Assembly: GCA_051362555.1 (NCBI GenBank)
Contig: CM120647.1
Location: 19,940,651-20,004,650, forward strand
Direction of reading: 5' to 3'
DNA: 64,000 nt
Source of the DNA: Lingula anatina
Lineage: Eukaryota > Animalia > Brachiopoda
Part shown: positions 17,174-63,960 of the stretch, one piece after another
Numbering within the stretch: position 1 is the first letter of the stretch
Layout of the letters: each line of letters opens with the position of its first letter
The notes under the pieces: model-generated
What the model was told of the DNA's origin: nothing
The model's input: only the letters and a program-made list of their open reading frames with translations
Database searches by the model: none
Program-made: the position numbers and the translations under genes

Positions 17174-17174
17174 G

Positions 17175-22758: not shown

Positions 22759-22790
<32 letters not shown>

Positions 22791-26755: not shown

Positions 26756-26796
<41 letters not shown>

Positions 26797-27382: not shown

Positions 27383-27778
27383 GTAAGTAGGAATACACTG
27401 ACTCTTGGTATATAGCAGTGGCTGATGAGAATTGGTTTAAGCTATTAAATGAGATTTGTATAAGTTTTTTTTTTTTTTTTTTTTTTTTAATAATATTTTG
27501 TCAAATTTTATCATTTCTGTTCTTTGGAATCCATATTAAATTATTTTAATCCTTTTTAAGTTTATTTTTCTAATACTAATGGCAGACAATCATTTTAGGC
27601 CCATTTTAAAAGTTTTTTTTTTTTTTTCATAAATGGCTATTTCCTACTAGATATAACACTTTAACCTCTTAATGATTTATTTCAACCTGATAGTAGAAAA
27701 AGAAAATCAGCAGATTCATTTCACCTTTACCCAGACTGCTATTTGGGAATAAAAGTTGTTGTCAGATGTTTACTTACT

Positions 27779-35963: not shown

Positions 35964-36008
35964 ATGTCGAATGTCTACTGGGGAGTTAGTTTTCCTAAGA
36001 GATCACAG
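35964..36008 (+). CDS. Candidate alternative first coding exon of DYRK4 (MSNVYWGVSFPKRSQ), copy 2
   Basis: Identical to 17129-17173 at offset 18835. Confidence 0.5.
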
Positions 36009-38104: not shown

Positions 38105-38362
38105 GGCTTCATTCACATGCAATGTCTATTTTCTAAATTCTATTTTCTATTCGCGGTATGTCTTATGATCACGGTCTGTGCCCTGAATATCCCGCGGCAT
38201 AATTACTGGCAGTGCGAGCCAGTTACTATAAGTTACTATAAGTAACTGGCTCGCGCTGCCAGTAATTACGTGGCGGGATATTCAGGGCACAGACCGTGAT
38301 CATAAGATAGCGCGTATAGAAAATAGATTTTTAGAAAATAGACATTCCATGTGAACGAAGCC
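38105..38362. mobile_element. PIF/Harbinger-like palindromic MITE, copy 2 (inside the duplication)
   Basis: Identical to 19270-19527. Confidence 0.88.
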
Positions 38363-41300
38363 TAAAACTGTACATCATTTCTCGTATTGACTGATGCACG
38401 AATCGCTGATTAAAAACCAAGAGTGGTGAGAAGTAAGTCACGATTATTGCCTGCAGCTGGTATGGAGGATGCTCTTGTTGGTTATGCTTTAATGGCAGTT
38501 GGGAAATTGGGAATTGAAGAGAGAGGATGGGTCAAGTGATCAAGTGATGTTTTATATTGCTATGAAACATTAAAAATATAGCAGTACTGGAACAGGTTTC
38601 TAATTTTTGGAAATTTAAATTATTTCAGTGGAGTAAGACAAAGGATACTGAATCATCTTAATAACATTAAGTAGCATTCTTTTTTTTTTTTTTTTTTTTT
38701 TTTCTTTTAAGCAAAAAATTAAAGTTTTAACCATTTTCATTTTATACAGAAACATATATTTTGTCATTTAAAAGAGGAAATTATTTTTATTCAGTGGTGT
38801 CTTGCAGCTTTTATTTCTCTTTTAGAAAATTAAGATAAACATGATATTTTTTGCGTGAATTTTTATGTTATTTCAAAACTATTTGTTAGCTAATCTTTTT
38901 TCGACAAATCTATAAATTTGTCTATATCAGGATAATTTTTAATCCCCTAAAAAGTTATGCAGTCATAATTCAGTTCTAAGCAGTTGGGATTTTTTCTGCA
39001 GTTAAATTTAAAATATAACAGAATATATATTTTAAGATATTAAAATTTAAACATCCAGTAAGACAAGAACTGCCGGCACGTTGTTGTTTGGTCAGTGAAC
39101 AGTGATCTACAAACAGCGGTCAGAAGGTGCAGTTATTTCACAGAAAGAGGTCTTTAAGGTCACAGTTAAATATAATTGTTACTATGCACTTGGTCGAATA
39201 CCAGTGTTTGATGTGACATAATAGACTACTATATACGCTAGTATTTCAACGGCATATATACAAGGCTGGGCTGCAGTGCAGTTCTTCTGTGACATAATCT
39301 CCCGCAACATGTTTCATATTTTAATAGTCTGTTACAACATACTACACTGTTTCATGTTTTATGAGTAAGCAAGGGTTGTGGTTGCGGTATGGTATGGTGC
39401 TATAGTTTAACAACAAGGAACAATGGGTTTGTTTCATATTTAAAACCATACAGAGGATTTGGTTACAGTAAACTACGAGTGTGATGTAATTCGAACAAAA
39501 GTATCACCCAGTATGCCTCAATACCAGATGATTATACACAGCTATTATGTAAGCTGTACATGTTTTATAACACCAGGAAGACGCACCTTAGCATTCATAA
39601 ACATTTAAGAAAACACAGTTCACTTCTCAATGCAAATTTAGCCAAATAATCAACATGTTGTAATCTGTATTAAGCGAGTGGAGGTGTGTAAGAATTTTTG
39701 CATTAAGGAGAGGCAGGGTGTCTTTGTAAATGTAATGTTAACGTCAAAGCAGGTGTTTAATTAGGGTCGGCCGAGGGGTCAGTCCGTAGAGAAGCTATGG
39801 CATGGTACATCTTCATGGAGTGTGAAACTAGCTTTTGTTGCTTTCTGCACCAATGGTTGCATTGTAGTTTCTGCCAAAGAATTAAAGCGGTATTTCTCAC
39901 AATGAAGTGAAGATTATTACCGAGATGCTTCTGATAAACTTGGATTTCTTTTTAAATGACTTGGTTGCACAGCAGGTTGATGGTGTTAAGTAGAAATCTG
40001 TTTGTGTTTGCCCTTGGAAATGAAGGGCTAATGTGGCCCTTTAAAAGATAAAATGATTTAAAATTGGGGATCGGTTATAAGGGCTTCAGGTGCCTGGGAT
40101 GAATCAGTATGAGTCACTTAAATGAGCCTGTTTTATTCTGAAGAGGAAGCTTCTTATCATTTAGACAAATAGATATTATTTGTACATTATTTGTACATTT
40201 TAGTAGACTTTACAATTCAAATACATTCTGGCTTGAATTTGATCAAAACTTTTGGTCTTAAAGCTTAGACTAACTTTTATCATTTGATATCTTTGGTCAG
40301 ACTGATACTTGATGATGCAAAAAAAAGATGTCTGTAAAAGAGCAATGATCTCAGTTCATCACATCCTGACACAATGGTGATGTCACACCTGATGCAACTG
40401 TTTTAAAATAAGAGAGCTTTAAATTAAGAAGTTTTAATTTTTGTGAGGCAAGTTTTTGGGCCTGTGAATTAGGACAGCTCTGGAAAACTCTATCAGGAAG
40501 GAGGACAAAAAAGACCTAGAGGTAGACAAAGAAGTGCATTTTTCAACCAAAGTGTTGACTGAAGCTAGTTCACCTAATTTTGTAATTATAACTCTTCACA
40601 CAAAAATATATAGCATCTATAAGTAAGATTCTGGCCTAGGAGGGACCCAGTGCTGTATTTTAAAGGTATTAGTACTGCCCATATCCCTCTACTTGGTGTC
40701 CTAAGATTACATCAGTGCCCCTTGGGTCACATCCCATTCATATGTAACTCTTCATAGAAATATATAATAGCAACACCAACCTCCCAACCCAACCTGAGTC
40801 ACTCAACCTACTGAATAAAGACAGAGACTTCTTTTCAGACTGGCTCTCAGCTGTGAATGCATGTTGACAACGTGCACGCGACGGCACAGCGTGCTGTCCT
40901 TGGGGTGTTTATTTTGATAAGGTGTCTACCTTGTTGTAACAGTAGCAAAGGTCTTCCCTTGCCTCAGGTGTTTGAATTCTCCCCTAGCCTTCCGCCATTG
41001 TATCTGCACCTTGTGTGTTGAAGTATTAACAAAAAAAGCAATATGTTACACTGTAAATGAACTACGATTTGACTTTATTGGTTACCGCACATTGCGCTAA
41101 TTAAAGACTGAGTAAACAACTAATGGGTGCATGCGTTTAGTGGTCTGAACTGTGATTGGTCAGTTTACGTCATCTCTATTCGGTGGATTTCAGTACCTTT
41201 GTCTGGTAGTCTAGGCTTGGGTGAAAGAGCAAGACTTTAGAGTAGCAATTTTTGTAAAGTGTTTTGTACTGTAGGGGGTATACCAAGTATGCTGTCCCAA

Positions 41301-41593
41301 ATAACAAGCTTTGCTTCTTTTGGAGTAACTTCATATGACTTAAAGATTTTGAGCACCAGAAGTTTGCTTGGTTAAGTTTCACTAAAGAAACTTTAAACCA
41401 AAAGTTAGCCTTTATACCACACTGTTTTTATTTTATTATTTAATTTTTAATTTTTTATTTTTTAGTAAATCCACATTATTATGTGGCCATTGTTTCTGGT
41501 AATGGCTTCATGAATCTGTGAATTTTCTATTCTAGACTAGTGTATTTGTTAAGTAACAGTTTCTCTGCCCCCTCCCCAACACACACACATGCA

Positions 41594-41625
<32 letters not shown>

Positions 41626-44600
41626 GCCTTTGCCATTCCCAACCAGGCTGCATGTAATACCAGCCCAGAGCACTTATTGTGGATGAACCAAGTAAGGAGA
41701 AAATACACAGGAACCAAACCAGCCAATCATCTTAGTTGAAGATGAGCATTGTTTATCCGCCTTAGAGGTTAAGATAAAAGCAGATTATTTATTTACCTTG
41801 CAAGGTTTTGGTCTCAATTTCTTGTTTTTAAACCCAAAGGGATGTGTATTCATAGCACTTGCTGTGGGCAAGAATTTGTTCAATTTTCCTCTTACCTGAT
41901 GAGGTTTTGACCATGCATTTCCCTCACAAATTGGACAGGAATTTGCCTTACTTGCTATTTACCCAGCAAGTGTTTGATTAGGATTTCTTTAGTTTAGGAT
42001 TTTACATTTCATACTAATTGGACAAGAATTTGACCAGGTAGATCAGATAACCCACATTTTGAGGTGGCATTTGTACTTTACATGGGGACTAGAATTGGTA
42101 AATGTAGGATACTAGTTCTTCATGTTTTTTTTTTTTTTTTTTTTAATCCAAACCAGTAATTCTTCTTTCCACTTCAATAAACATCCCTAGGGCAAAACAA
42201 ATGGTTGTCCTTGTTCTGAACTCTCTGTACATTAACTAGGAATTGTTTTGTAAGTCTTGAAGGTTTAGATGGAAATGCATGTTAAGTAAAACACCTCAGA
42301 TGTCTGTGTTTTTTTTAAGGTTCTTGTATTGGTAGATGTGGTTTGTAATTATTCAGAATGGTAAAATAAAACTTTTTTCTTTGGCATCAGCTTTCTATGT
42401 CCTGTAGCATTTTTCCATAGAGTATTTGGATGCCTGAAAAGAAAATGGAATTATCAAGAAATTCTTTGCACAATTATCTCTATATTTATTTATAAATAAT
42501 GTTTATTATCATCATTATTATGTCATTTATTTTATTTTAATTTAATTATTATTATTATTACTTTTTTTTTTTTTTTTTTTGCCAATAAAGGTATTACGTG
42601 CCAGTAACAAGTATACAGGGTAGTGTGCTTGGTCACCATGACAACAAACTATTTCTGTATCAAACTGTGAACAAGGTGCTGATGTCAGCATTAATGCTGT
42701 AATCTCGTCATTCTGCAGGGCATTAATTCCCATTTTCTCAGAACACGTTGCAAATTTAGCCATCAACATATTAATCTTCAGTGCAAACATAACAATTTAT
42801 CTTCTAGATGTTGTTAATGACTGTTCTTTATGGGCTGTTACACAACAGAGCCAAGAGTGTTTTCCCAGAATTTGGGTAAAGGTGATCATATTAACCATGA
42901 GTCAACCTATTTTTTTTTTAATCTTTGTTTAGTTTCTGAAGTGCACTTGTTACTGTGAGCCTGTATTTTGTACTCAGGCAGATGTTTTTAACATCAATGC
43001 AAAGTTTCTGGGTTACCTGCTCATGGAGAAAAGTTGTAAAGAAAACCTTGTTGGCTACTTGGATAAAAGAGAAAAAAAAATTGAGAAAGAAATTAGTTTG
43101 GGAGTTCTTTGTGCCTAAATAGTAATACTGTTAATAGATTTCAATTAGTTGTTTTTTCTTTGACTGATTAATTGATTTATGTTGCTATCATTCACTCTTG
43201 TAAGAATTGGAAGATGATTCTTTGCAAGGAAGTTATTAGGAAGTATTAAATGTCATCACAGGAGATACTAGTAAAACCTCTGAAAGAATCTTCTTGGGCT
43301 ATATTTAGCTTTTAATTCAGATTTGAAGATTGGCATGATATTCACTATCAGATCAGCTTTAGGCCTGTAGCCAGCAGCTTCATAGGAGAGTGGAGTTTTT
43401 TTTTTTTTTTTTTTTAAGTGGACGTTTGTACCATGATACTGACTAATACCTGGTAGGACCTAGATCAAATTTTGATTCAGAGCAGATCTTTTCACAGCCA
43501 AAAGGATGATGTTTCAGAAACCCCGTCTTCCAAAAATTATGAGGATAAAGAATTCCCTACTGGCTTCCTGTGTGATAGGTGGATAGGTTATAGGGTAGAA
43601 CTGATAATGGCTGGTATTTCAAGGTGTCTGGGCTGAAAAGGGCAAATATCTGTGATATATGCAACAGCCATATCAACAATGTTACAAAGATGCAATCCCG
43701 TAACCAGCAATATTAAAAAAGTGGACCTTTTACCATGAAACCTACATGTACCTTCATAAAATTTTACCCAGAGGGGACCTTTTCCTGACAAAAAGAGGGG
43801 GTTCTTTGAAACTCCGAAATTCCCGAACCCCACCCCTGGCTACCGGCCATGAAGATGTATGAATCAGGGTATTATTAGCAAACGAGTGAAAACACTGTAG
43901 TTTTTAATACAGTAGTACTATATAGTCAGTGCAGTGTTGACGTCAAATGGCTAGGGTATTTTAGACATTAGGTGGGAGTGATAGATTTGAAAACAAGACT
44001 GGTTTAGGTGATAGTAATTGGACTGCTCATGGGAGTTTTCCCTTGCTATATTTTATCAATGAATATACAGAACATAACTGAGAGTAAGTGATTTTGAATT
44101 GTTGAAATCAGTATGACATTTTTTTTATAAAGAAGGGATGAAGGTGAAATAAAGAACGGAAAACCCCAAGAAGTGAATTTGTTAGAATAAATAAATAAAA
44201 ATTGGTAACAAGTTTCTTAGAGGATGTGCCACAGACATTTCCTCTTGAAATGAAATGCATTCCAGTAAAAACAGTATTAGTTGTAAGTTCCCTGCTTAGG
44301 AGCAATAATGGCAACATGGATACACAAAGGAAGGAGGTGGAATACAATTTGTATCTATCTGGCTGGCAATACAGTACACCATGACTCTGGATCTTTAACA
44401 TGTGGAAGTAAGTAAGACTGGCAGCCAGGTGAGATACCCAGGTTTTCATAGATCTACTTAAGTTGATCTGTTCTCACAGCATACAAGTTCATTTGGTAGA
44501 GGTGATGGAGTTATAATCAGACATGAGCTTTTCAATTCCGATGGCTTCTTCTGAGATTTTTTTTTTTTTTTTTACCAGGCTCATGTCTGTATAATCAGAA

Positions 44601-45590
44601 CTTTGAAACATTCAGTTCTTTTTCTTTTTTTATTTTAATATGACATTTTATTTTGTGATTTTTAATGTTTTTCTTTAAATTCTTCCCCTATGTCACCTCT
44701 GGTACCTTCCCAGTTTTGTAGTTTACTGGAGACTCTCTGTAGTTCTCAGTATATATTTCTCCCAGTAGAGGTGAGTTAATCAGGGCCTGGAAACTCAGGG
44801 CACATTTGACCCAAAGGGAAGTAACATAAAACTGATGAGTGCAGCATATTACTGGGTAAAGTGCCAAGGATCACTGCAAACACTCCCGGTAATTCTGAAA
44901 ATCCTGGTAATTGGGTTGGAATGTTCTGGACCAGCTTGTCGTATCTCTGAGGTAGCTGAAAGTGATACAGGTACAGGTGCGTGTGTAGACTCAAGGAAAT
45001 GTTATGAATTACTCATCAACTTCCGGAAACCACAAGTCATTTTTGTTTTTTTGTTGTTTTTATTTTTTCTCACTCTCCTGCTTGATGAGGTGTCATCCAT
45101 GTGGGCAGAGAGCTATAAAAAGGCAAGCGAGTGAGTTTCTTTCATACGCTCAACAGAGAGCAAGAGAGAGAGAGAGCGAGAAACAGAGAGAGACAAGATA
45201 ACACAGATTACTGGAGTATTTATACAGCGTAGGGGTACATAAATCTGAAAATGTTGATGTTTTTTATGCTGATGATGAGAGGGTATAGGGCCCAAGGAAA
45301 ACCGGAGAAAAAGAGAAAAAGTCATTGCAAAAGATCAAAGGCAGCTTACCACAGAAAGAATAAGTTGCACACAAAGCCTGGGAAAACACAAGAAGGCAGG
45401 GCAATAGATTCCAGAAGTATGTGTCATTATGTACATGTATGTGTAGGAGCTTTCTGTGTTTGTCAGATACCTGTATATGTTTTTATTTACCATGAGTGAA
45501 GTGATTAAAATGTAAGTGATCAATTTCATCTATAGAATATGCACAGGTGCATGTTATTAATATATGGAATTGTACAGGGGTTTGTGTGAT

Positions 45591-45631
<41 letters not shown>

Positions 45632-46082
45632 AAAAAACATTTGTGTGTTTCTTTATACAATGAGTCCATGAGGTGGTCATTTACTTCTGTGGATTGTACA
45701 TGAATGAATAATACATGTATAAGTACACAAAATCTATATGTGAGGATTTTTTAATTTCTGAATGCTTCTAGGATACTTGTATGTTTTTATTTGCTGCTAG
45801 ATGACTTGTATGCTGAATACTGCTAGGATACTCTATATTTTATTTACTGCTAGGTGACTATCATCCTTTTAGCCAATTTCATCTGTACATAAGTTTATGT
45901 TATTTTATATTTTTGCCAGGAACTTCCGCAAGACATCTTCCGATTTTTCTCATCAGCTTTTTTTTTCAGAGGAGAAAATAATTCAGTATAACCTACATCT
46001 ACATCTGTTTAAGAGTATCATCCACAACATTAATTAAATGTTTTTGCATTTTATTTCATTCCTACATGTTTCTCTCCTGCAG

Positions 46083-51242
<5,160 letters not shown>

Positions 51243-54200
51243 GACAAATAGCTTTGGATGATTTGAGCATGTCCTTTTTAGGACCACCTGTGCTGCCCAT
51301 GGGGGTTTGAGCATGCAGGCACATTTCTTGTGTTATAATTAACTGCAGGCAGTCAAGTGGTCAGTTATTTTGACTGGTCAGTGTCCAGTTTAGTAACTTC
51401 ATGCTGGATATCATCATATTACTGTGATATTTATTTGTTGTTGATGGTGTTGGTGTAAATGTCGGTTTACTTTTCTTATAACTTTCCATGATTGTAACAC
51501 TTGTGGTGTACCATGTAGAATAATTCTGCATTGCAATTTCTTGAAGCCTGAATAGGGAATTCAGGGCAAAGGGCTAATTTTCTACTGGTGTTGTTCTCAC
51601 CATGTGATAGCAAACCGTCCAATCACATCTATTTTTGAATGATCCTAGTTGTAGAACTTGAAACACTTTATGACAGGAAGTTATGTATTGGAACGCCATT
51701 GTTTGTCACAGCTAACACAATTGCAAGAGAGCAAGCAAAAGGAAATCCATGACATATTTTTCAGATCCAATAAATATGCCCAAACATTTAAAAAGAATAC
51801 TGCATTGTAGACAAAAACAAAATTTAATTTTATAACCTTTCCCACATTTCTCATCCAAATTAGATATAAATAGCACTTTTTTCAGAGTTGAAAAGAACAG
51901 AGAAAAAGATATGATAAAATATCACTAATGCTAAATATTTCCTAATTGGGTACAGTCTTCCTTTTTATCTTTGCATTTTTCTATTCAGGAAAAAATTATA
52001 ATGAGCTGTAATTCCAAATATAGTTGGTCTCTGAAAACAAGAACCAACGTGAGAAAAACTTTGCATTTGAAAATTAATTTCTGTGCAAATCCCATTCCCA
52101 GGTATGTGGCAGCTACATGACCAATAGACAAGAAGCTAAGTCAGATTTCAAAATATTACAAATATGTATATGTACAGTGTATGTATATTTGAATATTTAT
52201 ATGCTATCGATTATTCTCTTTGAAGGATATAACCATTTAGCAATATATAAGGAATATAAATGAATTATATTTAGCAACATATTTTTAGCAAAGGCAATGT
52301 TATGCATAGAGATAATCAGGATGAAAAATCAGTGATATTAATCAACTTGATGTGGACAATCATATAAACTTTTAACTGCTCCTGCAATCCAGATTACCAC
52401 AATCTTGTATAGAAAAACTCTCCTTGGCTTTGAACTCAAGTCTCTTGCCCTGTCAAAGTCTTATGATTTTATAGTTTAATCTACAAACTTGTAGTTTATC
52501 TCTCTTTGATTTAAAAATATGTAGATTTAGTCCTTTTTAACCCTAGGAGTTTAGAGCTTAGTCACACAATACGTGTGCGTGTAAATATGCATTTGTTTTA
52601 GTTAATATTGTAGTACGTAGAACTTGGTTTACGTACGTTCCTTTACCTGAGAACTTGCTCAATAATGAGAGGGTTCTCACTGGAGACTTGGGGAATGCTG
52701 GGATACGTCGGCAGCTCAGTCATTGGCTCGAACTAATCTTTGTATTTGTTATGGAATTCTTAGTTGATTTACACTGTAAAATTTCAGAGAGGCTTTACAA
52801 CCTGCTAGATGTTCAAATTCCGAATTATATATTTAATTAATGAGGCTATACATTATAATGATGAACTATACACAAAAAACAATTGCATATGAGGAAGCTC
52901 AGCTGGTAACCTATTAGTTCTTGAAGAGCACCAAAAATCTGACCAAGTTGACATTTTTCCGTGCTGTTCCCCATTTCACCAGTGGTAATCCTCTGTAGGT
53001 TTGCAATATGTGTATTCTGTAAATAGAGCACCTTGCGCATGCTTCTTTATCTGACCTACTGTTTGGTTTTATTGTGGACATTTCTTCCATTTACTTAGTG
53101 AAGAGGACTTGCAGCTACAGGATTTTGTTAAATAGAGAGGCGCGGACCAAATAATAATATGAATATATAAAAAAACATGATAATTTTACTATAATATGTA
53201 GGCAAAAAATTGGTTGGCTGTGCCTATTTCCTTAAGTCATGCTTTTTTGGAGAGGGTGACATTGAGTAAGGTGTGGGAGTACCCTGCTCTAAACCCACCC
53301 CAACCCCCAAAAGATCCAGCTTGAAGAGTTCATAATTGGACACTGGGGTGAGATACAGGAGGGGGTGTTGAAAGTTGGGTTGGTTTTCCTAGTGCAGACT
53401 TCAACTGTTGTTTACTAACTCTGTCATATTGCTTTACGTAGGGCTAGTAAATTAAATCTTGAGGCTAATAGAGGAGCCAATTAGTTGTATGATAATGTGG
53501 CACAATGGCTCCCGCATCATCCCCATTAAAGAGAATGACCATGAATCATGCCACTGTTCAACAAAAGTGGTGTTTTCCAGGTAGATCACTTGTGCAAACC
53601 TCAGTGTACATAACATAATCCCAGACAATAAGAGTTGAAATTTATCTTCAATATTTGCCTAATGATATCAAAACTTGTACATTCGGCTAAAGTGAATATA
53701 GCATAATACTTCCAATGTTGCAATCTTATGCAAGAGATTTCAGCATGTGCTTGGTCCTGACTCGCCCATTTCAGGGCCACCTGACTTTTTGGTTATGCCC
53801 AGTCCTCCAGCAGCACTAATATATGGTGTTTACCTTCAGTTCCAATATACAGGTGAATGCTTACTAGAAAACATGTCAGTCTTTTTAATTATCTAATGGT
53901 TTATATGGTTGGATATTTATGTATCTATCTGTTGTAGTTTAATTTTAGTTTCATCTGTCGCACTTAATTCATCTGATAAAGGCAGAGCTTGCCAAAGGAA
54001 TGCCTTTATATATTACAGTTGATACATGGTAATTTATATTTCTGTACATAGTTTAATTGAGCCCTTGTTTTATTTTTATCTGAGTTTTTGACAATATTGT
54101 AATATGTGGTTTTTGTGACTCATACAGAGTGAATATATAAAAACATACTATACATATACTGTACATGTACTAGTATACCTGAAATATATTTGTTAAAAAT

Positions 54201-55489
54201 ACAGTATTTTTATCAAGTTTTAGTGTTATATACATATTCCATGTTACTTATAAATGACCTCTCTATAGAAAGGGCAAAGGTGAATTAGATTTTCTACAGG
54301 CATACATATTCAAAGTTGACCTGGGTGTAAAGTTGACCCAAAGATAGGTCCATTTTCACTAAAATACTTAAGACCAGTAATGGTGGTTTTAATCAGATCA
54401 AAGTTAATGCCCATATCCCTGTAGCTGTCTTTAATATTAGCTGCTTTTTGTTTTCATATTATGTTTTATTTCATTTTTATTAAATTGTTATTATTTTTAC
54501 TTTATAACAAAAAGGACCAAAAGTTTAACTTGAATTTTTTTTATTGTATTTATATTTATTTAATTCCATTATTCACAAACCAAGCACAGTAGTTTATATC
54601 ATTCTAATAGACAACTACTGAATTATCTTTGGTCACAGAATACTATATGTTTTGGTACGTTGATAAAGACCAACAGTCTGTTGTGAGATCTGTGAAACTG
54701 GACTTATGGTAATGTTTACTGTAATTTGCATCTGGGAAACAAAGTGTATACAGGTTTGCCCCAACACAATATATTTAGTAAATATCCGTCCACCTATAAC
54801 AGTATAAGCAGATGATTATAGAAATATTTGAAGAATTATCTATTTACATATAAAATGGTTTACACAAACGATAAAGATAGTTCCGTCCCATAGTTTTACA
54901 TTGGTGGTACAAATTCTAATAATTACAATTATACATGTATAATTACTCATCACATGTATTTCAAACTCTTCTTATGTCAGACCATTTATCCTTTCAGTCA
55001 TTGCATGTTTAGTGTTCACAATAGTAAAATATAGGATTATAAACTCAAGTGCTGTATTTCTTTTTATTATTATTATTTATTCTTTTATAAGTCCAAATAA
55101 AATGTTTTCAGTGTTGATCAAAAATTGTGAGTAGTAAATGTAATGGACTACCCCAATCCGTCCGTTTACTCTGAATGTCAACTTGCTTATGGTAATATTG
55201 TATATGTATATTGTATACAGTATTGTTATGTACGGGAAATGGTACATGCATTCCTGATGTTGTCATAATGTCACGTGACTCAACACAGTATGGGCGTGGC
55301 AGTTATAAGACAATAAATCTGACAAAAATATTTACTCCTTCCCACTGTCTTGTTATTAAAAAATGGCTGTTTTAATAAAAAAAAATTCTTTTTTATCAGT
55401 TCATCACAAGTATGCAAAAACTGAGAGCATCCAGCTGAACAAAAGTCAGTATTTTTCCAAGAACCAGTTAGTGCATTGGATATAGCTGT

Positions 55490-55625
55490 ACTGCAGCTTT
55501 CACCCAGCACCTGCTCCTTAAAACGTAGAGGCTCTGCGTGGTTTCTCTGTGCAGATATACTACGAGCTAATTCATGTATTGTGACTGCTGTCTCTTTGTG
55601 GATGTGGAATTCTCCCAGTACAGCG
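55490..55625 (-). pseudogene. Decayed TPR repeat relic downstream of the stop codon
   Basis: A different frame reads VLGEFHIHKETAVTIHELARSISAQRNHAEPLRFKEQVLGESCSTAI, the same repeat with indels. Confidence 0.75.
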
Positions 55626-55640
55626 TATCTACTTCTACAT

Positions 55641-58600
55641 CTATAAACAAATACAGCACGCTCTGGGTTTACAATCTGTATCATTTATTGAGCTAGATCT
55701 TGTATCTTGTTGCGACTTTCTCCGAGCCAGAGCTGAATTTCCCATCTGACTCATTTTGTGACGTACGTTGGGCAGCACAATGGGTGTATAGCCACTTTCA
55801 CCCAAAAGTGGTACATCTATGCGTAGAGCTCGGAGTTCTTCTGCATAGTTTTCTTGTGCACGAGTTAATTCATGTTCTGTGACTGCTGTCTGTTCATGGC
55901 ATTCTCCCAGTATCTTTTCCTTCATAGCCAGAGCTCTCCTGAGGACGTCCATAGCACCGGCTGTATTGCCAATCTTTATCATTTCAGTACCTATGTTGTG
56001 TAGTGTATTGGCTGTACTGTTACTTTCACCCAGCACTTGTTCCTTTATACAAAGAGCTCTTTGATGTGTCCTGAGGGCCTCTTCATGGTTTGCCTGTGCA
56101 GATATGCCACGAGCCAATTCATGTATTGTGCCTGCTGTATCTTCATGGTATTCTCCCAGTATCTTCTCCTTCATAGCCAAAGCTCTCTTAAAGGCATCCA
56201 CAGCACCGTCTACATTGCCCATCTCCATCATTTCATGACCTATATTATTTAGAGTAGTAGCTGTTTCTTGACTCTCACCCAACACTTGTTCCTTAATACA
56301 AAGAGCTCTCTGGTATGTAATAAGAGCCTCTGCGTGGTTTCCCTGTGCAGATATGGCACGAGCCAATTCATGTATTGTGCCTGCTGTATCTTCATGGTAT
56401 TCTCCCAGTATCTTCTCCTTCATAGCCAAAGCTCTCTTAAAGGCATCCACAGCTTCGTCTACATTGCCCATCTCCATCATTCCATGACCTATATTATTTA
56501 GAGTAGTAGCTGTTTCTTGACTCTCAACCAACACTTGTTCCTTTATACAAAGAGCTCTTTGATATGTCCTGAGGGCCTCTTCATGGTTACCCTGTGCAGA
56601 TATGGCACGAGCTAGTTCATGTATTGTGCCTGCTGTATCTTCATGGTATTCTCCCAGTATCTTCTCCTTCATAGCCAAAGCTCTCTTAAAGGCATCCACA
56701 GCACCGTCTACATTGCCCATCTCCATCATTTCATGACCTATATTATTTAGAGTAGTAGCTGTTTCTTGACTCTCACCCAACACTTGTTCCTTAATACAAA
56801 GAGCTCTCTGGTATGTAATAAGAGCCTCTGCGTGGTTTCCCTGTGCAGATATGGCACAAGCCAATTCATGTATTGTGCCTGCTGTATCTTCATGGTATTC
56901 TCCCAGTATCTTCTCCTTCATAGCCAAAGCTCTCTTAAAGGCATCCACAGCACCGTCTGTATTGCCTGTCTCTATCATTTCATGACCTATGTTGTGCAGC
57001 GTAACGGCTGTATTAAGACTTTCACCCAGCACTTGTTCCTCTATACGTAGAGCTCTTTGATATGTCCTGAGGGCCTCTTCATGGTTTCCCTGTGTAGATA
57101 AGGCACGAGCTAACTCGTTTAGTGTGGTTGCTGTCTGTTCATCATATTCTCCCAGTATCAACTCACTCATAGCCAAAGCTGTCCTGAAAACATCCACAGC
57201 ACCTTCTGCATTGCCTAGCTCAATCATTACCTGCCCCATGCAGTTGAGTGTACAGGCCATGCTGCGACTTTCACCCAATACTTGTTCCTTTATGTGTACA
57301 GCTCTTTTGTATGTACTGAGGGCCTCTGCGTAGTTTGCCTGTGCAGCTAGTGCATGGGCTAGTTCATGTATTGTGACTGCTGTGCTTTCGTGATATTCTC
57401 CCAGTATCTTCTGCTTCATAACCAAAGCTTGCTTGAGGACATCCTCAGCACCTTTTGCATTGCCCAGCTTTATCATTTCCTGACCAATGCAGTGCAGAGT
57501 ACTTGCTGTGCTGCGGCTTTCACCCATCACTTGCTCCTTTATACGTAGAGCTCTCTGGTATGTACTGCGGGCCTCTTCATGGTTTCCCTGTGCAGATATG
57601 GCACGAGCCAATTCATGTATTGCGCCTGCTGTATCTTCATGGTATTCTCCCAGTATCTTCTCCTTCATAGTCAAAGCTCTCTTAAAGGCATCCACAGCAC
57701 CGTTTGTATTGCCCGTCTCTATCATTTCATGACCTATGTTGTGCAGCGTAGCGGCTGTATTACGACTTTCACCCAGCACTTGTTCCTCTATACGTAGAGC
57801 TCTTTGGTATGTGTCGAGGGCCTCTTCATGGTTTCCCTGTGCAGATAAGGCACGAGCTAACTCGTTTAGTGTGGTTGCTGTCTGTTCATCATATTCTCCC
57901 AGTATCAACTCACTCATAGCCAAAGCTGTCCTGAAAACATCCACAGCACCTTCTGCATTGCCTAGCTCAATCATTACCTGCCCCATGCAGTTGAGTGTAC
58001 AGGCCATGCTGCGACTTTCACCCAATACTTGTTCCTTTATGTGTACAGCTCTTTTGTATGTACTGAGGGCCTCTGCGTAGTTTGCCTGTGCAGCTAGTGC
58101 ATGGGCTAGTTCATGTATTGTGACTGCTGTGCTTTCGTGATATTCTCCCAGTATCTTCTGCTTCATAACCAAAGCTTGCTTGAGGACATCCTCAGCACCT
58201 TTTGCATTGCCCAGCTTTATCATTTCCTGACCAATGCAGTGCAGAGTACTTGCTGTGCTGCGGCTTTCACCCATCACTTGCTCCTTTATACGTAGAGCTC
58301 TCTGGTATGTACTGCGGGCCTCTTCATGATTTCCCTGTGCAGATATGGCACGAGCCAATTCATGTATTGCGCCTGCTGTATCTCCATGGTATTCTCCCAG
58401 TATCTTCTCCTTCATAGCCAAAGCTCTCTTAAAGGCATCCACAGCACCGTTTGTATTGCCCGTCTCTATCATTTCATGACCTATGTTGTGCAGCGTAGCG
58501 GCTGTATTACGACTTTCACCCAGCACTTGTTCCTCTATACGTAGAGCTCTTTGGTATGTGTCGAGGGCCTCTTCATGGTTTCCCTGTGCAGATAAGGCAC

Positions 58601-61600
58601 GAGCTAACTCGTTTAGTGTGATTGCTGTCTGTTCATCATATTCTCCCAGTATCAACTCACTCATAGCCAAAGCTGTCCTGAAAACATCCACAGCACCTTC
58701 TGCATTGCCTAGCTCAATCATTACCTGCCCCATGCAGTTGAGTGTACAGGCCGTGCTGCGACTTTCACCCAATACTTGTTCCTTTATATGTACAGCTCTT
58801 TTGTATGTACTGAGGGCCTCTGCGTAGTTTGCCTGTGAAGCTAGTGCATGGGCTAGTTCATGTATTGTGACTGCTGTGCTTTCGTGATATTCTCCCAGTA
58901 TCTTCTGCTTCATAACCAAAGCTTGCTTGAGGACATCCTCAGCACCTTTTGCATTGCCCAGCTCTATCATTTCCTGACCAATGCAGTGCAGAGTACTTGC
59001 TGTGCTGCGGCTTTCACCCATCACTTGCTCCTTTATACGAAGAGCTCTCTGGTATGTACTGAGGGCCTCTTCATGGTTTCCCTGTGCAGATATGGCACGA
59101 GCCAATTCATGTATTGCGCCTGCTGTATCTTCATGGTATTCTCCCAGTATCTTCTCCTTCATAGCCAAAGCTCTCTTAAAGGCATCCACAGCACCGTTTG
59201 TATTGCCCGTCTCTATCATTTCATGACCTATGTTGTGCAGCATAACGGCTGTATTACGACTTTCACCCAGCACTTGTTCCTCTATACGTAGAGCTCTTTG
59301 GTATGTGTCGAGGGCCTCTTCATGGTTTCCCTGTGCAGATAAGGCACGAGCTAATTCATGTAGTGTGGTCGCTGTCTGTTGATCATATTCTCCCAGTATC
59401 AACTCACTCATAGCCAAAGCTGACCTGAAAACATCCACAGCACCTTCTGCATCGCCTAGCACTATCATTACCTGCCCCATGCAGTTGAGTGTACAGGCCG
59501 TGCTGCGACTTTCACCCAACACTTGTTCCTTTATGTGTACAGCTCTTTGGTATGAACTGAGGGCCTCTGCGTAGTTTGCCTGTGCAGCTAGTGCATGGGC
59601 TAGTTCATGTATTGTGACTGCTGTGCTTTCGTGATATTCTCCCAGTATCTTCTGCTTCATAACCAAAGCTTGCTTGAGGACATCCTCAGCACCTTTTGCA
59701 TTGCCCAGCTCTATCATTTCCTGACCAATGCAGTGCAGAGTACTTGCTGTGCTGCGGCTTTCACCCATCACTTGCTCCTTTATATGTAGAGCTCTTTGGT
59801 ATGTACTAAGAGCCTCTGCGTGGTTTCCCTGTGCAGATATGGCACGAGCTAATCCGTGAATTGTTACTGCTGTCTGTTCGTGGGATTCTCCAATTATCTT
59901 TTTCTTCATAGAAAGAGCTCTAGAGAAGAAATCCATAGCATCATCTGCATTGCCCATCTCTAGCATTTCCTGGCCAATACAGTGCATTGTTACGGCTGTA
60001 CTGCAACTTTCATCCAGCACCTGCTTCTTAATACAAAGAGCTCTCTGGTATGTAATAAGAGCCTCTGCGTGGTTTCCTTGTGCAGATATGGCACGAGCCA
60101 ATTCATGTATTGTGACTGCTGTATCTTCATGGTATTCTCCCAGTATCTTCTCCTTCATAGCCAAAGCTCTCTTAAAGGCATCCACAGCTTCGTCTACATT
60201 GCCCATCTCCATCATTTCATGACCTATATTATTTAGAGTAGTAGCTGTTTCTTGACTCTCACCCAACACTTGTTCCTTTATACAAAGAGCTCTTTGATAT
60301 GTCCTGAGGGCCTCTTCATGGTTTCCCTGTGCAGACATGGCACGAGCTAGTTCATGTATCGTAGTTACTGTGCTTTCATGGTATTCTGTCAGCAAATTCT
60401 CCTGCATAGCCAAAGTTCTCTTAATGACATCCACAGCATCGTCTGCATTGTCTAGCTCTATCATTTCCTGACCCATGCAGAGCAGTGTACTTGCTGTACT
60501 GCAACATTTACCCAGCACTTGCTCCTTTAAATGTAGAGCTCTCTGGAATGTACCGAGAGCCTCTGCGTGGTTTCCTTGTGCACATTTGGCACGAGCTAAT
60601 TCATGTATTGTGGCTACTGTGCTTTTATGGAATTCTCCCAGTATCTTCTCCTTCATAGCCATAGCTCTCCTGAAGACATCTACAGCACCGTCTGCATTGT
60701 CCATCTCTATCATTTCCTGTCCAATGCAGTTCAGGGTAATGGCTGTACTAAGACTTTCACCCAGACCTTTCTCCTTTATATGTAGGGCTCTCTGGTATGT
60801 GCTTAGGGCCTCTTCATGGTTTCCCTGTGCAGATATGGCACGAGCTAATTCATGTATTGTGACTGCTGTGCTTCCATGGTATTCCCCCAGTATCTTCTCC
60901 TTCATAGCCACAGCTCTCATGAGGACATCTACAGCACCGTCTGCATTGCCCATCTCTATCATTTCCTGTCCAATGCAGTTCAGTGTAATGGCTGTGCTAA
61001 GGCTATCACCCAACACTTTGTCTTCTATATGTAGGGCTCTCTGGTATGTGCTTAGGGCCTCTTCATGGTTTCCCTGTGCAGATATGGCACGCGCTAATTC
61101 ATGTATTGTGGCTGCTGTGCTTCCATGGTATTCCCCCAGTATCTTCTCCTTCATAGCCACAGCTCTCATTAGGACATCCACAGCACCGTCTGTATTGCCC
61201 ATTTCTATCATTTCAGTACCTATGTTGTGCAGTGCACTGGCTGTGTTGCGACTTTCACCCAACACTTGTTCTTCTACACGTAAAACTCTTTGGTACGTTT
61301 TAAGGGCCTCTTCATGGTTTCCCTGTGCAGATTTGGCACGAGCTAATTCATGTATTGTGACTGCTGTCTGTTCATGGTATTCTCCCAGTATCTTCACCTT
61401 CATAGCCAGAGCTCTCATTAGGACATCCACAGCACTGTCTGTATTGCCCAGCTCTATCATTTCGTGTCCAATGCAGTTCAGGGTAATGGCTGTACTGAGT
61501 CTATCACCTAACACTTGTTCTTCTATACATAGAGCTCTTTGGTAAGTTTTTAGGGCCTCTTCATGGTTTCCCTGTGCAGATATGGCACGAGCTAATTCAT

Positions 61601-62663
61601 GTATTGTGACTGCTGTCTGTTCATGGTATTCTCCCAGTATCTTTTCATTCATAGCCAGACTTCTCCTGAGGACGTCCACAGCACCGTCTGCATTGTCCAT
61701 CTCTATCATTTCCTGTCCAATGCAGTTCAGTGTAATGGCTGTGCTAAGGCTATCACCCAACACTTTGTCTTCTATATGTAGAGCTCTTTGGTAAGTTTTT
61801 AGGGCCTCTTCATGGTTTCCCTGGGCAGATATGGCACGAGCTAATTTATGTATTGTTGCTGCTGTGCTTTCGTTGTATTCTCCCAGTAACTTTTCCTCCA
61901 TAGCAAGAGCTCTCCTGAGGGCATCTTCAGCACTTTCTGCATTACCCAACTCTATCATTTCAATTCCCATGTTGTATAGTGTACTGGCTGTATTTCGACT
62001 TTCACCGAATACTTTTTCCATAATACTACGGGCTCTCTGGTATGTACTGAGGGCCTCTGCGTGGTTTCCCTGTGCAGATATGGCTCGAGCTAATTCATGT
62101 ATTGTGACTGCTGTATGTTCGTCACATTCTCCCCGTAACTTCTCCTTCATTGCCAGAGCTCTCCTGAGGACATCCACAGCAGCGTCTGCACAACCAAGTT
62201 CTAGCATTTCAAGACCTATGAAGAGTAGTGTGGTTGCTGTACTTTTATTTTCACCCAGGACTTGCTCTTTTACATGAAGTGCCCTTTTAAGTGTACTGAG
62301 GGCTTCTGCGTGGTTTCCTTGTTCAGACATGGCACGTGCGAGCAGATGCATTGTTTCTGCTGTCTCTATGTGGCATTCCCCAAGGAACTTCAATCTGATA
62401 TCCAGCGTGTTTTTCAGGATATTGATAGCACCCCCTGCGTCACCTAAAACTACCAAACAAGACGCCATGCCTTCTAGTAGGTCGATCATGTGAGCATTAT
62501 ATGTCTTCGCCAATGACAAATATGTAGCTTCCTTCAGAACATGAGAATCTGCAGCTATGGCACTACTCACAGTTCCAAACTGTTTATCACAAAGAGCTTC
62601 GAGACAGGTGAGTGCATGGGCGTATTCACGTATTCGAAGGAGTGTTTTTGCGAGTAGTTCCAT
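55641..62663 (-). CDS. Giant TPR array (~54 repeats of the 41/42-aa kinesin-light-chain/nephrocystin-3-like type) with C-terminal CaaX; sensor part of the NB-ARC-TPR receptor
   Basis: 2340-aa uninterrupted ORF; alternating TAxTIHELARAISAQGNHxEAL and TAxTLxxIGxEMxExGNxxGAVD repeats; ends DCKPRACCICL*. Confidence 0.9.
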   Translation of the reverse strand: MELLAKTLLRIREYAHALTCLEALCDKQFGTVSSAIAADSHVLKEATYLSLAKTYNAHMIDLLEGMASCLVVLGDAGGAINILKNTLDIRLKFLGECHIETAETMHLLARAMSEQGNHAEALSTLKRALHVKEQVLGENKSTATTLLFIGLEMLELGCADAAVDVLRRALAMKEKLRGECDEHTAVTIHELARAISAQGNHAEALSTYQRARSIMEKVFGESRNTASTLYNMGIEMIELGNAESAEDALRRALAMEEKLLGEYNESTAATIHKLARAISAQGNHEEALKTYQRALHIEDKVLGDSLSTAITLNCIGQEMIEMDNADGAVDVLRRSLAMNEKILGEYHEQTAVTIHELARAISAQGNHEEALKTYQRALCIEEQVLGDRLSTAITLNCIGHEMIELGNTDSAVDVLMRALAMKVKILGEYHEQTAVTIHELARAKSAQGNHEEALKTYQRVLRVEEQVLGESRNTASALHNIGTEMIEMGNTDGAVDVLMRAVAMKEKILGEYHGSTAATIHELARAISAQGNHEEALSTYQRALHIEDKVLGDSLSTAITLNCIGQEMIEMGNADGAVDVLMRAVAMKEKILGEYHGSTAVTIHELARAISAQGNHEEALSTYQRALHIKEKGLGESLSTAITLNCIGQEMIEMDNADGAVDVFRRAMAMKEKILGEFHKSTVATIHELARAKCAQGNHAEALGTFQRALHLKEQVLGKCCSTASTLLCMGQEMIELDNADDAVDVIKRTLAMQENLLTEYHESTVTTIHELARAMSAQGNHEEALRTYQRALCIKEQVLGESQETATTLNNIGHEMMEMGNVDEAVDAFKRALAMKEKILGEYHEDTAVTIHELARAISAQGNHAEALITYQRALCIKKQVLDESCSTAVTMHCIGQEMLEMGNADDAMDFFSRALSMKKKIIGESHEQTAVTIHGLARAISAQGNHAEALSTYQRALHIKEQVMGESRSTASTLHCIGQEMIELGNAKGAEDVLKQALVMKQKILGEYHESTAVTIHELAHALAAQANYAEALSSYQRAVHIKEQVLGESRSTACTLNCMGQVMIVLGDAEGAVDVFRSALAMSELILGEYDQQTATTLHELARALSAQGNHEEALDTYQRALRIEEQVLGESRNTAVMLHNIGHEMIETGNTNGAVDAFKRALAMKEKILGEYHEDTAGAIHELARAISAQGNHEEALSTYQRALRIKEQVMGESRSTASTLHCIGQEMIELGNAKGAEDVLKQALVMKQKILGEYHESTAVTIHELAHALASQANYAEALSTYKRAVHIKEQVLGESRSTACTLNCMGQVMIELGNAEGAVDVFRTALAMSELILGEYDEQTAITLNELARALSAQGNHEEALDTYQRALRIEEQVLGESRNTAATLHNIGHEMIETGNTNGAVDAFKRALAMKEKILGEYHGDTAGAIHELARAISAQGNHEEARSTYQRALRIKEQVMGESRSTASTLHCIGQEMIKLGNAKGAEDVLKQALVMKQKILGEYHESTAVTIHELAHALAAQANYAEALSTYKRAVHIKEQVLGESRSMACTLNCMGQVMIELGNAEGAVDVFRTALAMSELILGEYDEQTATTLNELARALSAQGNHEEALDTYQRALRIEEQVLGESRNTAATLHNIGHEMIETGNTNGAVDAFKRALTMKEKILGEYHEDTAGAIHELARAISAQGNHEEARSTYQRALRIKEQVMGESRSTASTLHCIGQEMIKLGNAKGAEDVLKQALVMKQKILGEYHESTAVTIHELAHALAAQANYAEALSTYKRAVHIKEQVLGESRSMACTLNCMGQVMIELGNAEGAVDVFRTALAMSELILGEYDEQTATTLNELARALSTQGNHEEALRTYQRALRIEEQVLGESLNTAVTLHNIGHEMIETGNTDGAVDAFKRALAMKEKILGEYHEDTAGTIHELACAISAQGNHAEALITYQRALCIKEQVLGESQETATTLNNIGHEMMEMGNVDGAVDAFKRALAMKEKILGEYHEDTAGTIHELARAISAQGNHEEALRTYQRALCIKEQVLVESQETATTLNNIGHGMMEMGNVDEAVDAFKRALAMKEKILGEYHEDTAGTIHELARAISAQGNHAEALITYQRALCIKEQVLGESQETATTLNNIGHEMMEMGNVDGAVDAFKRALAMKEKILGEYHEDTAGTIHELARGISAQANHEEALRTHQRALCIKEQVLGESNSTANTLHNIGTEMIKIGNTAGAMDVLRRALAMKEKILGECHEQTAVTEHELTRAQENYAEELRALRIDVPLLGESGYTPIVLPNVRHKMSQMGNSALARRKSQQDTRSSSINDTDCKPRACCICL
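56800..59790 (-). repeat. Four near-identical 747-bp higher-order repeats (6 TPRs each) inside the TPR ORF; boundaries approximate
   Basis: Antisense shadow ORFs recur at 57366, 58113, 58860 and 59607 (step 747). The protein repeats the HCIGQE/NCMGQV/HNIGHE triplet four times. Confidence 0.9.
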
Positions 62664-63960
62664 GGTGGGGCAAAATTCTTCTTTAAGTCATTCGACAATG
62701 CACTGAAATAGTGTATGCAATTTACATAATTATCCCTCTTTTTTTCAAAATGTGTGAATGTGTTGCTTTCCTTGACAAGTCTTGTGATGCTGGGCTCCAT
62801 ATATCTTATGAAATGTGTCATGAATCTATTTCTGTCTTCTTGTGAAGTTTTGTACTCGGCAAAGTCCCGAATTACACTGTGCATCACAAAACACTCCCTT
62901 GCTTTATCAGCTGTCAACAAAGACTTGTCGCACAGCACACCAATAAAGTGTAGGTGTTTTAATTTCGTAACTGTTTTCAGTTCTTTGCTGACCAGCTGAA
63001 ACGCTTCGTCAGCGGTGAAGTACAATGGAAAAAGTGACAACAATAGATACAGTGTCCTCTCAGTTTGGCACAGACGGTTATATGTAAGGCTAATGCAAGC
63101 GTAGGGATCAAAAGGTTCAGCACTCAAAGTGAATAAGGACCTATCATTGGTAACACGTTCGTTAAGGAGATCGACAGCGTTGCAACCCTGACGCAGTAGG
63201 AAGCCAAAAAGGTGAAGCAATAGTGCCATAAACCCACATTTCATTGCTAGCTTGTCGCCTTCAACGCTATTCAAAGATGGCGAATACCAGCGTAACAAGG
63301 ACAATGATGCATCTTTTGATAAAGATTGAAGCTGATGTAATTCAACCTTTAAATTGGGTAAATGTATTGTGTCACGTGATGTACACAAAACATACGCGTT
63401 TCTGCAGTTCATGTTGATGTATCCCAAAAACGATTTCAATTGTTCATGGTTTTCACTACTTAGGATAGTCTCACAAGTGTCAAGAATAACCAAAATCTTC
63501 TTGCCGTATCCTGATATTTCCTGAAAGACTTTTCTGTTTAACTCGCTCAATCGTTTATTTTCGGTTTCAACGGCAGGTGCTATTTGCAACAATCCCCCAT
63601 CCTTGTGCTGCAGCCCTTTGTCATAATTTATGATCAAATCTGTGCTTGTAAAATCTGTACTTGACTTTAAAGCAATTAGAAGGCATTTTGCAATATCTTC
63701 CTGGTCAGACACGTACCTCATGTCAGCCATCACAGAACGGATGCCCCATCTCGAGACAAATTCATGACCAATTTCGGTTGCCAAAGCGGTCTTTCCTTGT
63801 CCCCCAAACGCCTGAATAATGACCAGCCGACATCCATTCATGAGAAACGCTTGGCAGATTTTTTCTACGTCTTCCTCACGACCTTCAAAGCACTCCGGCC
63901 GCTCTGGAATAGAGGAATCCTCGAGGATGGATGCTGAAAGGACGTTGGACAATTGATGTG
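62567..63960 (-). CDS. STAND NTPase (NB-ARC type) region of an NLR-like NB-ARC-TPR receptor; 5' exon(s) outside the window
   Basis: FEGREED motif, Walker A AFGGQGKT, Walker B ILVILDTCE, sensor-1-like VLCTSR, GLPL-like CGFMALLL, SLTYNRL, MHD-like VMHSVIRDFA. Acceptor (ta)n-tag| at 63961/63960, phase 1, so the track's TTG start is probably not the real start. Confidence 0.85.

What the first reader, a model, noticed from the sequence alone, without database searches (positions are those of the whole stretch)
55641..55730. C-terminal CaaX prenylation signal (…RRKS…DCKPRAC-CICL*) on an NLR-like protein
Seen: the ORF ends C-C-I-C-L-stop, preceded by another Cys and basic residues after a short polar linker. 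Known: CaaL is the geranylgeranyltransferase-I consensus, and neighbouring Cys/basic residues act as second membrane signals in Ras/Rho proteins. Inference: the far end of the TPR solenoid is membrane-tethered, so the receptor could survey a membrane or vacuole surface. I do not know of this architecture in described NLRs.
Basis: partly seen in the sequence, partly recalled or inferred. Interest (0 to 1): 0.75.

Follow-up and report, generated by a model that had tools for sequence, protein, structure and literature searches.

The report
Frameshift-exposed lipid-anchor tag, brachiopod receptor
The lipid-anchor signal at the end of this likely lamp-shell (brachiopod) immune-type gene is really in the DNA, but it is a worn-out repeat read in the wrong frame, is missing from the related genes that were read, and lies on a gene copy whose reading frame is broken further up, so it is likely a recent accident rather than an established membrane-tethered receptor.

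Summary
The motif is real: the minus-strand ORF 55641-62687 ends C-C-I-C-L-stop, and CICL behaves like a canonical GGTase-I substrate in a published yeast screen. But the tail is a decayed TPR unit read one base out of frame. Intact units of the same array already spell CCGCL-stop in that frame (6 of 26), so a frameshift here often ends in a CaaX-like word. The repeat's own frame continues past the stop with only frame-keeping indels, so the switch is probably recent. The syntenic genes of two same-species assemblies and four other paralogue ends lack any CaaX (0 of 6), as do four Lingula anatina proteins. The NB-ARC head lies in another frame (one base missing near 62683), so as assembled no NLR-like protein carries the tag. 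RNA gave no test. For the idea: two distant CARD-NB-ARC-TPR proteins end in clean CaaL boxes (2 of 150; 0.3 expected), and the scan noted a CaaX-ending NB-ARC-TPR in another genome (unchecked). Verdict: likely accidental, haplotype-specific, prenylatable tag on a decaying receptor copy; about 20% that it is a selected anchor.

The parts
55644..55655 (-). CaaX word C-I-C-L (stop TAG at 55643-55641; extra Cys codon at 55658-55656)
   Evidence: behaves like canonical GGTase-I words in the yeast screen
55641..55727 (-). 28-codon tail plus stop: a decayed 41-residue 'B' TPR unit read one base out of frame
   Evidence: DNA alignment to intact B units, local score 49.5 against 24.2 +/- 3.3, 0 of 1000 shuffles; positional homologue in B1
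55280..55726 (-). same DNA in the repeat's own frame: TPR-like B unit with a TAA at 55687-55685, then an A unit and the start of a further B unit (TPR-like to about 55470); frame open from 55684 to 55280
55728..55910 (-). degenerate last A unit (35 residues) and partial B unit in the own frame; inferred deletion junction near 55730 that switches the frame
   Evidence: the junction mechanism is inferred
55911..62384 (-). 52 intact TPR units (26 pairs of a 42- and a 41-residue unit; 249-nt period)
62661..62663 (-). first ATG of the TPR ORF, in CCACCATGG context (Kozak-like; consensus recalled); possible start of a TPR-only product, untested
62682..62684 (-). A-run where the window has one base fewer than two intact paralogues: frameshift between NB-ARC and TPR parts (real lesion or assembly error not decided)
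   Evidence: L009 and L011 are open across this point
62567..63960 (-). NB-ARC (STAND ATPase) coding stretch with Walker A, Walker B, sensor and MH motifs; ends out of frame at 62567; upstream exon (CARD in relatives) lies outside the window
   Evidence: (Pfam NB-ARC 19.7 bits, below the 23.5 cut-off); CARD in P0003-P0005; exon start at 63960 inferred from the sequence
46671..55330 (+). neighbouring DYRK-type kinase gene (label from recalled motifs), last exons and a long 3' UTR, convergent with the TPR gene; used as synteny anchor
   Evidence: (two GT..AG joints, RNA depth to about 55300)

Best explanation
The C-terminal CICL is a decayed TPR repeat unit read one base out of frame, likely exposed by a recent haplotype-specific deletion near 55730; it would likely be geranylgeranylated if the protein were made, but it sits behind a second frameshift that cuts the repeats off from the NB-ARC head, so it is likely an accidental tag on a decaying receptor copy. 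Shown: homology of the tail to the B unit, the Cys-rich shifted frame of intact units, absence of the tag from syntenic and paralogous ends, the upstream frameshift as assembled. Inferred: the deletion event and its recency, the decay of the copy, prenylation (from yeast data on the tetrapeptide). Mechanism if translated (established CaaX pathway, recalled): GGTase-I adds geranylgeranyl to the Cys at -4, Rce1 and Icmt trim and methylate, the Cys at -5 could be S-acylated, and the far end of the TPR solenoid would sit on endomembranes. As assembled, that product would need an allele without the 62683 frameshift or a start at the ATG at 62663.
For: (1) Tail DNA aligns with intact B units, ungapped over the last 15 codons. 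(2) At the motif position the shifted frame of the 26 intact B units reads CCGCL-stop in 6, SCGCL-stop in 2, CCGCH-stop in 1, CCGCFQ in 4; random entry into this frame ends C-x-x-x-stop in 9.5% and C-x-C-L-stop in 4.2% of 2078 positions. (3) Behind the stop the own TPR frame is open for 134 codons, and all 5 net indels there against the B1 homologue (-6, +6, -21, +6, -15) keep that frame, which suggests it was translated until recently. (4) In B1 the same DNA is a TPR remnant in its own frame, reading CCGCLQ in the shifted frame and ending without CaaX; the syntenic genes of B1 and B2 end in a family-type cap, TIPR-stop and AIPR-stop. (5) 0 of 6 genomic ORF ends (L003, L004, L006, L014, L015, L016) and 0 of 4 L. 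anatina proteins (P0003, P0004, P0005, P0010) end in Cys-x-x-x. (6) pN/pS against B1 over the 21 codons before the stop does not favour the shifted frame (0.38/0.46, own frame 0.37/0.49). (7) The gene copy has a one-base frameshift and lacks roughly 130 residues of helical region present in L009 and L011.
Against: CICL is in the 137-of-8000 canonical class, whereas the ancestral-type CGCL is not (E-scores 0.035 and 2.27), and three of four predictors call CICL prenylated against one of four for CGCL: the changes moved the word towards a better substrate. About 90 degenerate codons before the stop are free of stops, although B1 has a stop in that frame. The 6.5-kb TPR array has no stop, so decay, if any, is very recent. 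The stay-open argument from stops alone is weak (63 codons stay open 19% of the time at 25% divergence); it rests on the indels, read from one pairwise alignment. The locus carries deeply diverged haplotypes (NB-ARC 74% against UTR 86-88%), so absence from B1 and B2 does not date the tail. Two distant family members end in clean CaaL boxes. Several paralogue loci in B1 and B2 were not read to their ends.
Confidence: 0.65

Rival explanations
1. Born by frameshift but kept by selection: a working haplotype encodes CARD-NB-ARC-TPR-CICL, geranylgeranylated and held on endomembranes, as OAS1 p46 is; the break at 62683 is an assembly slip or a new null allele.
For: CICL canonical in yeast data while CGCL is not; stop-free degenerate linker; intact NTPase motifs and confident Apaf-1-like fold (pLDDT 86.7); two other CARD-NB-ARC-TPR proteins end in CVLL and CSIL, 2 of 150 against 0.28 expected, P about 0.03, post hoc, and a cluster mate of the second ends in CISM; the break lies in an A-run.
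Against: No conservation in 0 of 10 related ends read; no frame-specific constraint; own frame preserved past the stop; weak basic second signal; P0025 has no close relative in which to test conservation.
Confidence: 0.2
2. The real C-terminus lies further on: a short intron removes the frame switch and the stop and returns to the TPR frame, so CICL is only an unspliced read-through or a minor isoform.
For: Two GT..AG pairs restore the own frame: 55716-55641 (acceptor with 9 of 13 pyrimidines) and 55766-55676 (donor with 4 of 6 consensus matches); it would explain why the own frame stays open behind the stop.
Against: Each pair has one poor site (donor 1 of 6 matches; acceptor 5 of 13 pyrimidines); the TPR arrays of the paralogues read are uninterrupted up to their ends.
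Confidence: 0.07
3. The tail, or the frame switch at about 55730, is an assembly artefact at the edge of a long repeat array.
For: Neither other assembly holds the tail at high identity; the window has a 15.6-kb near-perfect duplication that may be a mis-assembly and an A-run frameshift.
Against: The tail differs from every unit by 13 or more of 45 bases and is positionally homologous to a remnant in B1 and a shorter one in B2, which a consensus error would not produce; the duplicated block has 0 mismatches in 15,561 bases and the 7-kb ORF is unbroken, suggesting accurate base calls.
Confidence: 0.08

Closest known systems
Lingula anatina CARD-NB-ARC-TPR proteins LOC106167851, LOC106167867, LOC106165459
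   Same: 44-47% identity over the NB-ARC part; same 42/41-residue TPR units
   Different: None ends in Cys-x-x-x; their frames are unbroken; far fewer repeats than the 52 here
Animal NB-ARC proteins with CARD or death-like heads and TPR or WD40 repeats (placozoans, Hydra; PMC6321704, passages read); solved STAND relatives Apaf-1, AfsR, PH0952
   Same: STAND ATPase fold with a C-terminal repeat domain; death-fold head in the relatives
   Different: [quoted passage not shown]
Human OAS1 p46 (PMC8357416, passages read)
   Same: Works-like comparison: an allele-dependent C-terminal CaaL that is geranylgeranylated and moves an innate sensor to endomembranes
   Different: Unrelated protein; made by a splice variant, shown by experiment; that paper also shows a CaaX alone was not enough in one construct. 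Here the word comes from an overlapping frame and is untested
S-acylated NOD1 and NOD2 (PMC13286793 and bioRxiv 10.64898/2026.09.30.755683, search listing and start of abstract only)
   Same: Lipid-dependent membrane recruitment of an NLR is known
   Different: Reversible palmitoylation by ZDHHC5 of NACHT-LRR proteins, not C-terminal prenylation
New C-termini from frameshifts in tandem repeats or stop-codon changes (PMC12871928, PMC4494051; abstracts only)
   Same: Same route of origin; such ends are often recent and polymorphic, and some are assembly errors
   Different: No CaaX case in the abstracts read

Membership tests
CaaX prenylated proteins (GGTase-I substrates) | Cys four residues from the C-terminus of the ORF | tested here: met
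CaaX prenylated proteins (GGTase-I substrates) | a2X residues accepted by GGTase-I | tested here: met
   Looked up in published yeast data: CICL E-score 0.035 at 37 C, CVLL 0.0096, CASQ 0.99; class defined. a2 is Cys, outside the paper's V/I/L consensus; yeast enzyme, not brachiopod
CaaX prenylated proteins (GGTase-I substrates) | Second membrane signal (polybasic patch or S-acylated Cys) | tested here: inconclusive
   Adjacent Cys present; 5 basic and 3 acidic residues in the 28-residue tail
CaaX prenylated proteins (GGTase-I substrates) | Motif conserved in orthologues or paralogues | tested here: not met
   0 of 6 genomic ORF ends, 0 of 4 annotated proteins
CaaX prenylated proteins (GGTase-I substrates) | The motif is the end of an expressed protein and is lipidated in cells | not testable with these tools
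   Available RNA runs come from other haplotypes; no biochemistry
NB-ARC-TPR STAND proteins (NLR-like) | NB-ARC ATPase domain with Walker A/B, sensor and MH motifs | tested here: met
   Motifs read; family profile hits AfsR at 1e-42, NRC4 and Apaf-1; model matches Apaf-1 at E 2.5e-13, TM 0.58. Pfam NB-ARC alone is below its cut-off
NB-ARC-TPR STAND proteins (NLR-like) | C-terminal TPR array | tested here: met
   52 intact units; TPR_12 1031 bits
NB-ARC-TPR STAND proteins (NLR-like) | ATPase and repeats in one reading frame | tested here: not met
   One-base frameshift near 62683 against L009 and L011; lesion or assembly error undecided
NB-ARC-TPR STAND proteins (NLR-like) | N-terminal effector domain (CARD) | not tested
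   Outside the window; present in P0003-P0005 and upstream of paralogue L010
NLR in the strict sense (NOD plus LRR) | Leucine-rich repeats | tested here: not met
   No LRR family among the 25 of 27 Pfam hits shown for the repeat ORF; all leading hits are TPR

The most novel reading that the evidence does not exclude
The TPR units of these brachiopod receptors carry a latent CC-x-CL-stop in their overlapping frame, so one deletion in the array can hand the receptor a geranylgeranyl anchor; this haplotype has done so and tuned the word, and prenylated CARD-NB-ARC-TPR receptors (also P0025 and P0159) are a recurring, undescribed class of membrane-tethered animal STAND sensors.
Probability: 0.2. 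Interest if true: 0.75.

Novelty: new variant of a known kind. Interest (0 to 1): 0.38.

Why it matters
If accidental, it is a clear case of how a repeat array can produce a biochemically valid targeting signal by frameshift, and a warning that terminal motifs on repeat proteins need a frame check. If selected, it would be a traceable birth of a prenylation site on a STAND receptor, testable with one Cys-to-Ser change, and would point to membrane-tethered CARD-NB-ARC-TPR sensors in animals, including a lineage in which Apaf-1 was not detected (PMC11463336, passages read).

Tried and rejected
Expression: no RNA holder was listed for 55000-57000. 8 of the 9 same-label runs were laid, 6-26% of each read. 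At 90% likeness no read covered 55611-55897 in 4 of 4 runs. At 85% the reads near the tail in X6 and X8 leave the window at 55497, 55532, 55858 and 55884 and run on as intact TPR sequence, i.e. paralogue transcripts; no joint matched the candidate introns; the bins are too coarse to exclude single reads over 55641-55727. The runs that cover the kinase gene differ from the window at fixed sites, so they are other haplotypes: no test either way. No own genome is held, so paralogues of the same assembly could not be counted. Protein search with the last 120 residues among proteins of 910-2595 residues: 4 generic TPR hits, none with the tail. Search with P0025: itself plus distant hits at 21-31%, those named being bacterial; 0 of these 119 end in Cys-x-x-x. 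A selection test against single intact units was dropped: it gave opposite answers by choice of donor unit, and its simulated odds are post hoc. Yeast FTase data for CICL were intermediate and not used. Atlas search with P0159 gave death-fold-STAND-TPR clusters, commonest in Cnidaria, without sequences to check ends. Literature: 0 papers hold NB-ARC, CaaX and TPR together; searches listed no title on a prenylated NLR or STAND protein; the library lacks most subscription papers, and the Lingula immune survey (Gerdol et al. 2018) was seen only as a reference. Structure of the tail and complexes were not predicted (not informative here).

Full report
Observation. The minus-strand ORF 62687-55641 (2348 codons) ends ARRKSQQDTRSSSINDTDCKPRACCICL-stop. 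The CaaX word is CICL at 55655-55644. The ORF is almost all TPR: 26 pairs of a 42-residue A unit and a 41-residue B unit, then a degenerate A unit, part of a B unit and the 28-residue tail. The NB-ARC part is a separate ORF in another frame, from the window end to 62567.

What gene this is. The closest proteins are three Lingula anatina CARD-NB-ARC-TPR proteins at 44-47% identity, so the source is probably a Lingula-type brachiopod (inferred; earlier notes on this genome say the same). Pfam NB-ARC is just under its cut-off (19.7 against 23.5 bits), but a 64-sequence family profile hits AfsR, NRC4 and Apaf-1 and the model (pLDDT 86.7) matches Apaf-1 first. It is an NB-ARC-TPR STAND gene, a kind reported from placozoans and Hydra (PMC6321704, passages). 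The CARD exon is outside the window and only inferred from relatives.

Is CICL a usable word? Yes, in yeast. In the GGTase-I screen of all 8000 CXXX words, those with an E-score under 0.2 at 37 C (137 words) are mainly canonical geranylgeranylated ones (PMC10942308, section 17 read). CICL scores 0.035, CVLL 0.0096, the non-substrate CASQ 0.99, and CGCL 2.27 (PMC11304957, supplement rows). Three of four predictors call CICL prenylated and both call it cleaved; CGCL gets one of four and none (PMC9231725, supplement rows). The second signal is modest: an adjacent Cys, and 5 basic against 3 acidic residues.

Where the tail comes from. The tail DNA aligns with intact B units (local score 49.5; shuffles 24.2 +/- 3.3, 0 of 1000 reach it). 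In the repeat's own frame it reads as a worn B unit with one TAA, followed past the CICL stop by a worn A unit and the start of another B unit. Read one base earlier, intact B units already give a Cys-rich peptide: at the motif position CCGCL-stop in 6 of 26, SCGCL-stop in 2, CCGCH-stop in 1, CCGCFQ in 4. Entering this frame at any of 2078 positions of the array ends in C-x-x-x-stop in 9.5% and C-x-C-L-stop in 4.2% of cases, against 0.7% and 0% in the other shifted frame. The Cys pair, the second Cys, the Leu and several basic residues are thus by-products of the TPR codons. The switch of frame near 55730 is best read as a deletion between two units (inferred). In the paralogue loci the same position reads mostly CCG-C/R-P, in some cases followed by a stop, and none of the units tallied reads CCGCL-stop, so the ready-made L-stop form is a feature of the window's array.

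Conservation. Two other assemblies carry the same species label (B1, B2). Neither showed a high-identity match to the tail (only the best 12 matches per genome are listed, so weak homologues are not excluded), and their best NB-ARC matches are 74% identical over the exon in B2 and only short pieces in B1. Using the 3' UTR of the neighbouring kinase gene as anchor (86-88%) I read the syntenic loci. In both, the NB-ARC-TPR type gene ends in a family-type capping helix, AIPR-stop in B2 and TIPR-stop in B1. Between that stop and the UTR lies a TPR remnant homologous to the window's tail: long in B1, behind a LINE-like insertion, short in B2. The B1 remnant is open in its own frame, reads CCGCLQ in the shifted frame, and ends without a CaaX. 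Four more paralogue ends (L003, L004, L006, L016; two of them may be splice read-throughs) and four L. anatina proteins also lack it: 0 of 6 and 0 of 4. Other paralogue loci seen were not read to their ends.

Timing and selection. Against B1 the window's remnant has one net indel before the stop (-9) and five after it (-6, +6, -21, +6, -15), all keeping the own frame, and that frame is open for 134 codons behind its TAA. This suggests the post-stop DNA was still translated while it diverged, so the CaaX frame took over late (inferred; one pairwise alignment; lack of stops alone is weak, 19% at 25% divergence). pN/pS over the 21 codons before the stop is the same in both frames (0.38/0.46 and 0.37/0.49): no sign of constraint on the new frame, with little power. 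On the other side, the change from Gly to Ile moved the word into the canonical class, about 90 degenerate codons are stop-free, and the locus holds deeply diverged haplotypes (tail region 59-74% against about 93% in the UTR), so the tail could be older than it looks.

The upstream break. Two intact paralogues run in one frame from NB-ARC into the repeats; the window has one base fewer in an A-run at 62684-62682 and lacks roughly 130 residues of the helical region. As assembled, translation ends at 62567 and the CaaX is on no NLR-like protein. It may be an assembly slip, but a 15,561-base duplication in the window has no mismatch and the 7-kb ORF is unbroken, which suggests good base calls. 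An ATG in CCACCATGG context at 62663 could start a TPR-only product (speculative).

Expression. Not tested: the RNA runs that could be laid come from other haplotypes; details under Tried and rejected. Two short GT..AG pairs would skip the CaaX and restore the TPR frame, each with one poor site.

The wider lead. Among 150 family representatives 8 have Cys at -4 (2.8 expected) and 2 end in canonical CaaL words (0.28 expected, P about 0.03, post hoc): P0025, CARD-NB-ARC-TPR ending CCVLL, and P0145/P0159, CARD-NB-ARC-TPR ending in a basic stretch and CSIL. Both are unnamed; P0025 has no close relative. An earlier, unchecked note of this scan describes a CaaX-ending NB-ARC-TPR family in an amoeba genome. 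No paper in the library holds NB-ARC, CaaX and TPR together.

Comparison and verdict. It would work like OAS1 p46, where an allele-dependent CaaL moves a sensor to endomembranes (PMC8357416, passages), and lipid-dependent membrane recruitment of NOD1 and NOD2 is known (search listing). New ends from frameshifts in repeats are a known route (abstracts). Best reading, 0.65: a recent accidental but prenylatable tag on a decaying, haplotype-specific receptor copy. Selected anchor 0.2, assembly artefact 0.08, spliced out 0.07. Interest 0.38; new variant of a known kind.

Noticed in passing
window 12218-27778 and 31055-46613: 15,561-base direct duplication with 0 mismatches and 2 single-base gaps near its start: very recent tandem duplication or assembly artefact.
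   Followed up: partly
window 46671-55330 (+): DYRK-type kinase gene (label from recalled motifs) with a roughly 4-kb 3' UTR covered by RNA reads, ending about 300 bases from the receptor's stop, convergently.
   Followed up: partly
L013/L015 (B1) and L014 (B2) against window 55400-63960: Identity falls sharply at the end of the kinase UTR, and a different NB-ARC-TPR gene sits at the same place in the other two assemblies: deeply diverged receptor haplotypes at one locus, as at plant R-gene loci (comparison recalled).
   Followed up: partly
L015:3238-3804 (-): In B1 the TPR remnant is an open frame of 188 codons behind a LINE-like insertion and has a possible splice acceptor before it; it might be an alternative last exon.
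   Followed up: no
proteins P0025, P0145/P0159/P0160: Unnamed CARD-NB-ARC-TPR proteins ending in CCVLL, CSIL and (cluster mate) CISM: better candidates for prenylated STAND receptors than this gene.
   Followed up: partly
L016:4253-12302 (+) and P0003: Some paralogues carry, behind the TPR array, a further domain that looks protease-like (a GDSG motif; label recalled, not scanned), so C-terminal add-ons vary in this family.
   Followed up: no
L003, end of the TPR ORF: One B1 paralogue ORF ends in a hydrophobic stretch that could be a membrane tail or read-through into an intron.
   Followed up: no
window 56957-59700 (-): Within the array a block of three A/B pairs (747 bases) recurs almost unchanged about four times, showing recent higher-order expansion.
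   Followed up: no
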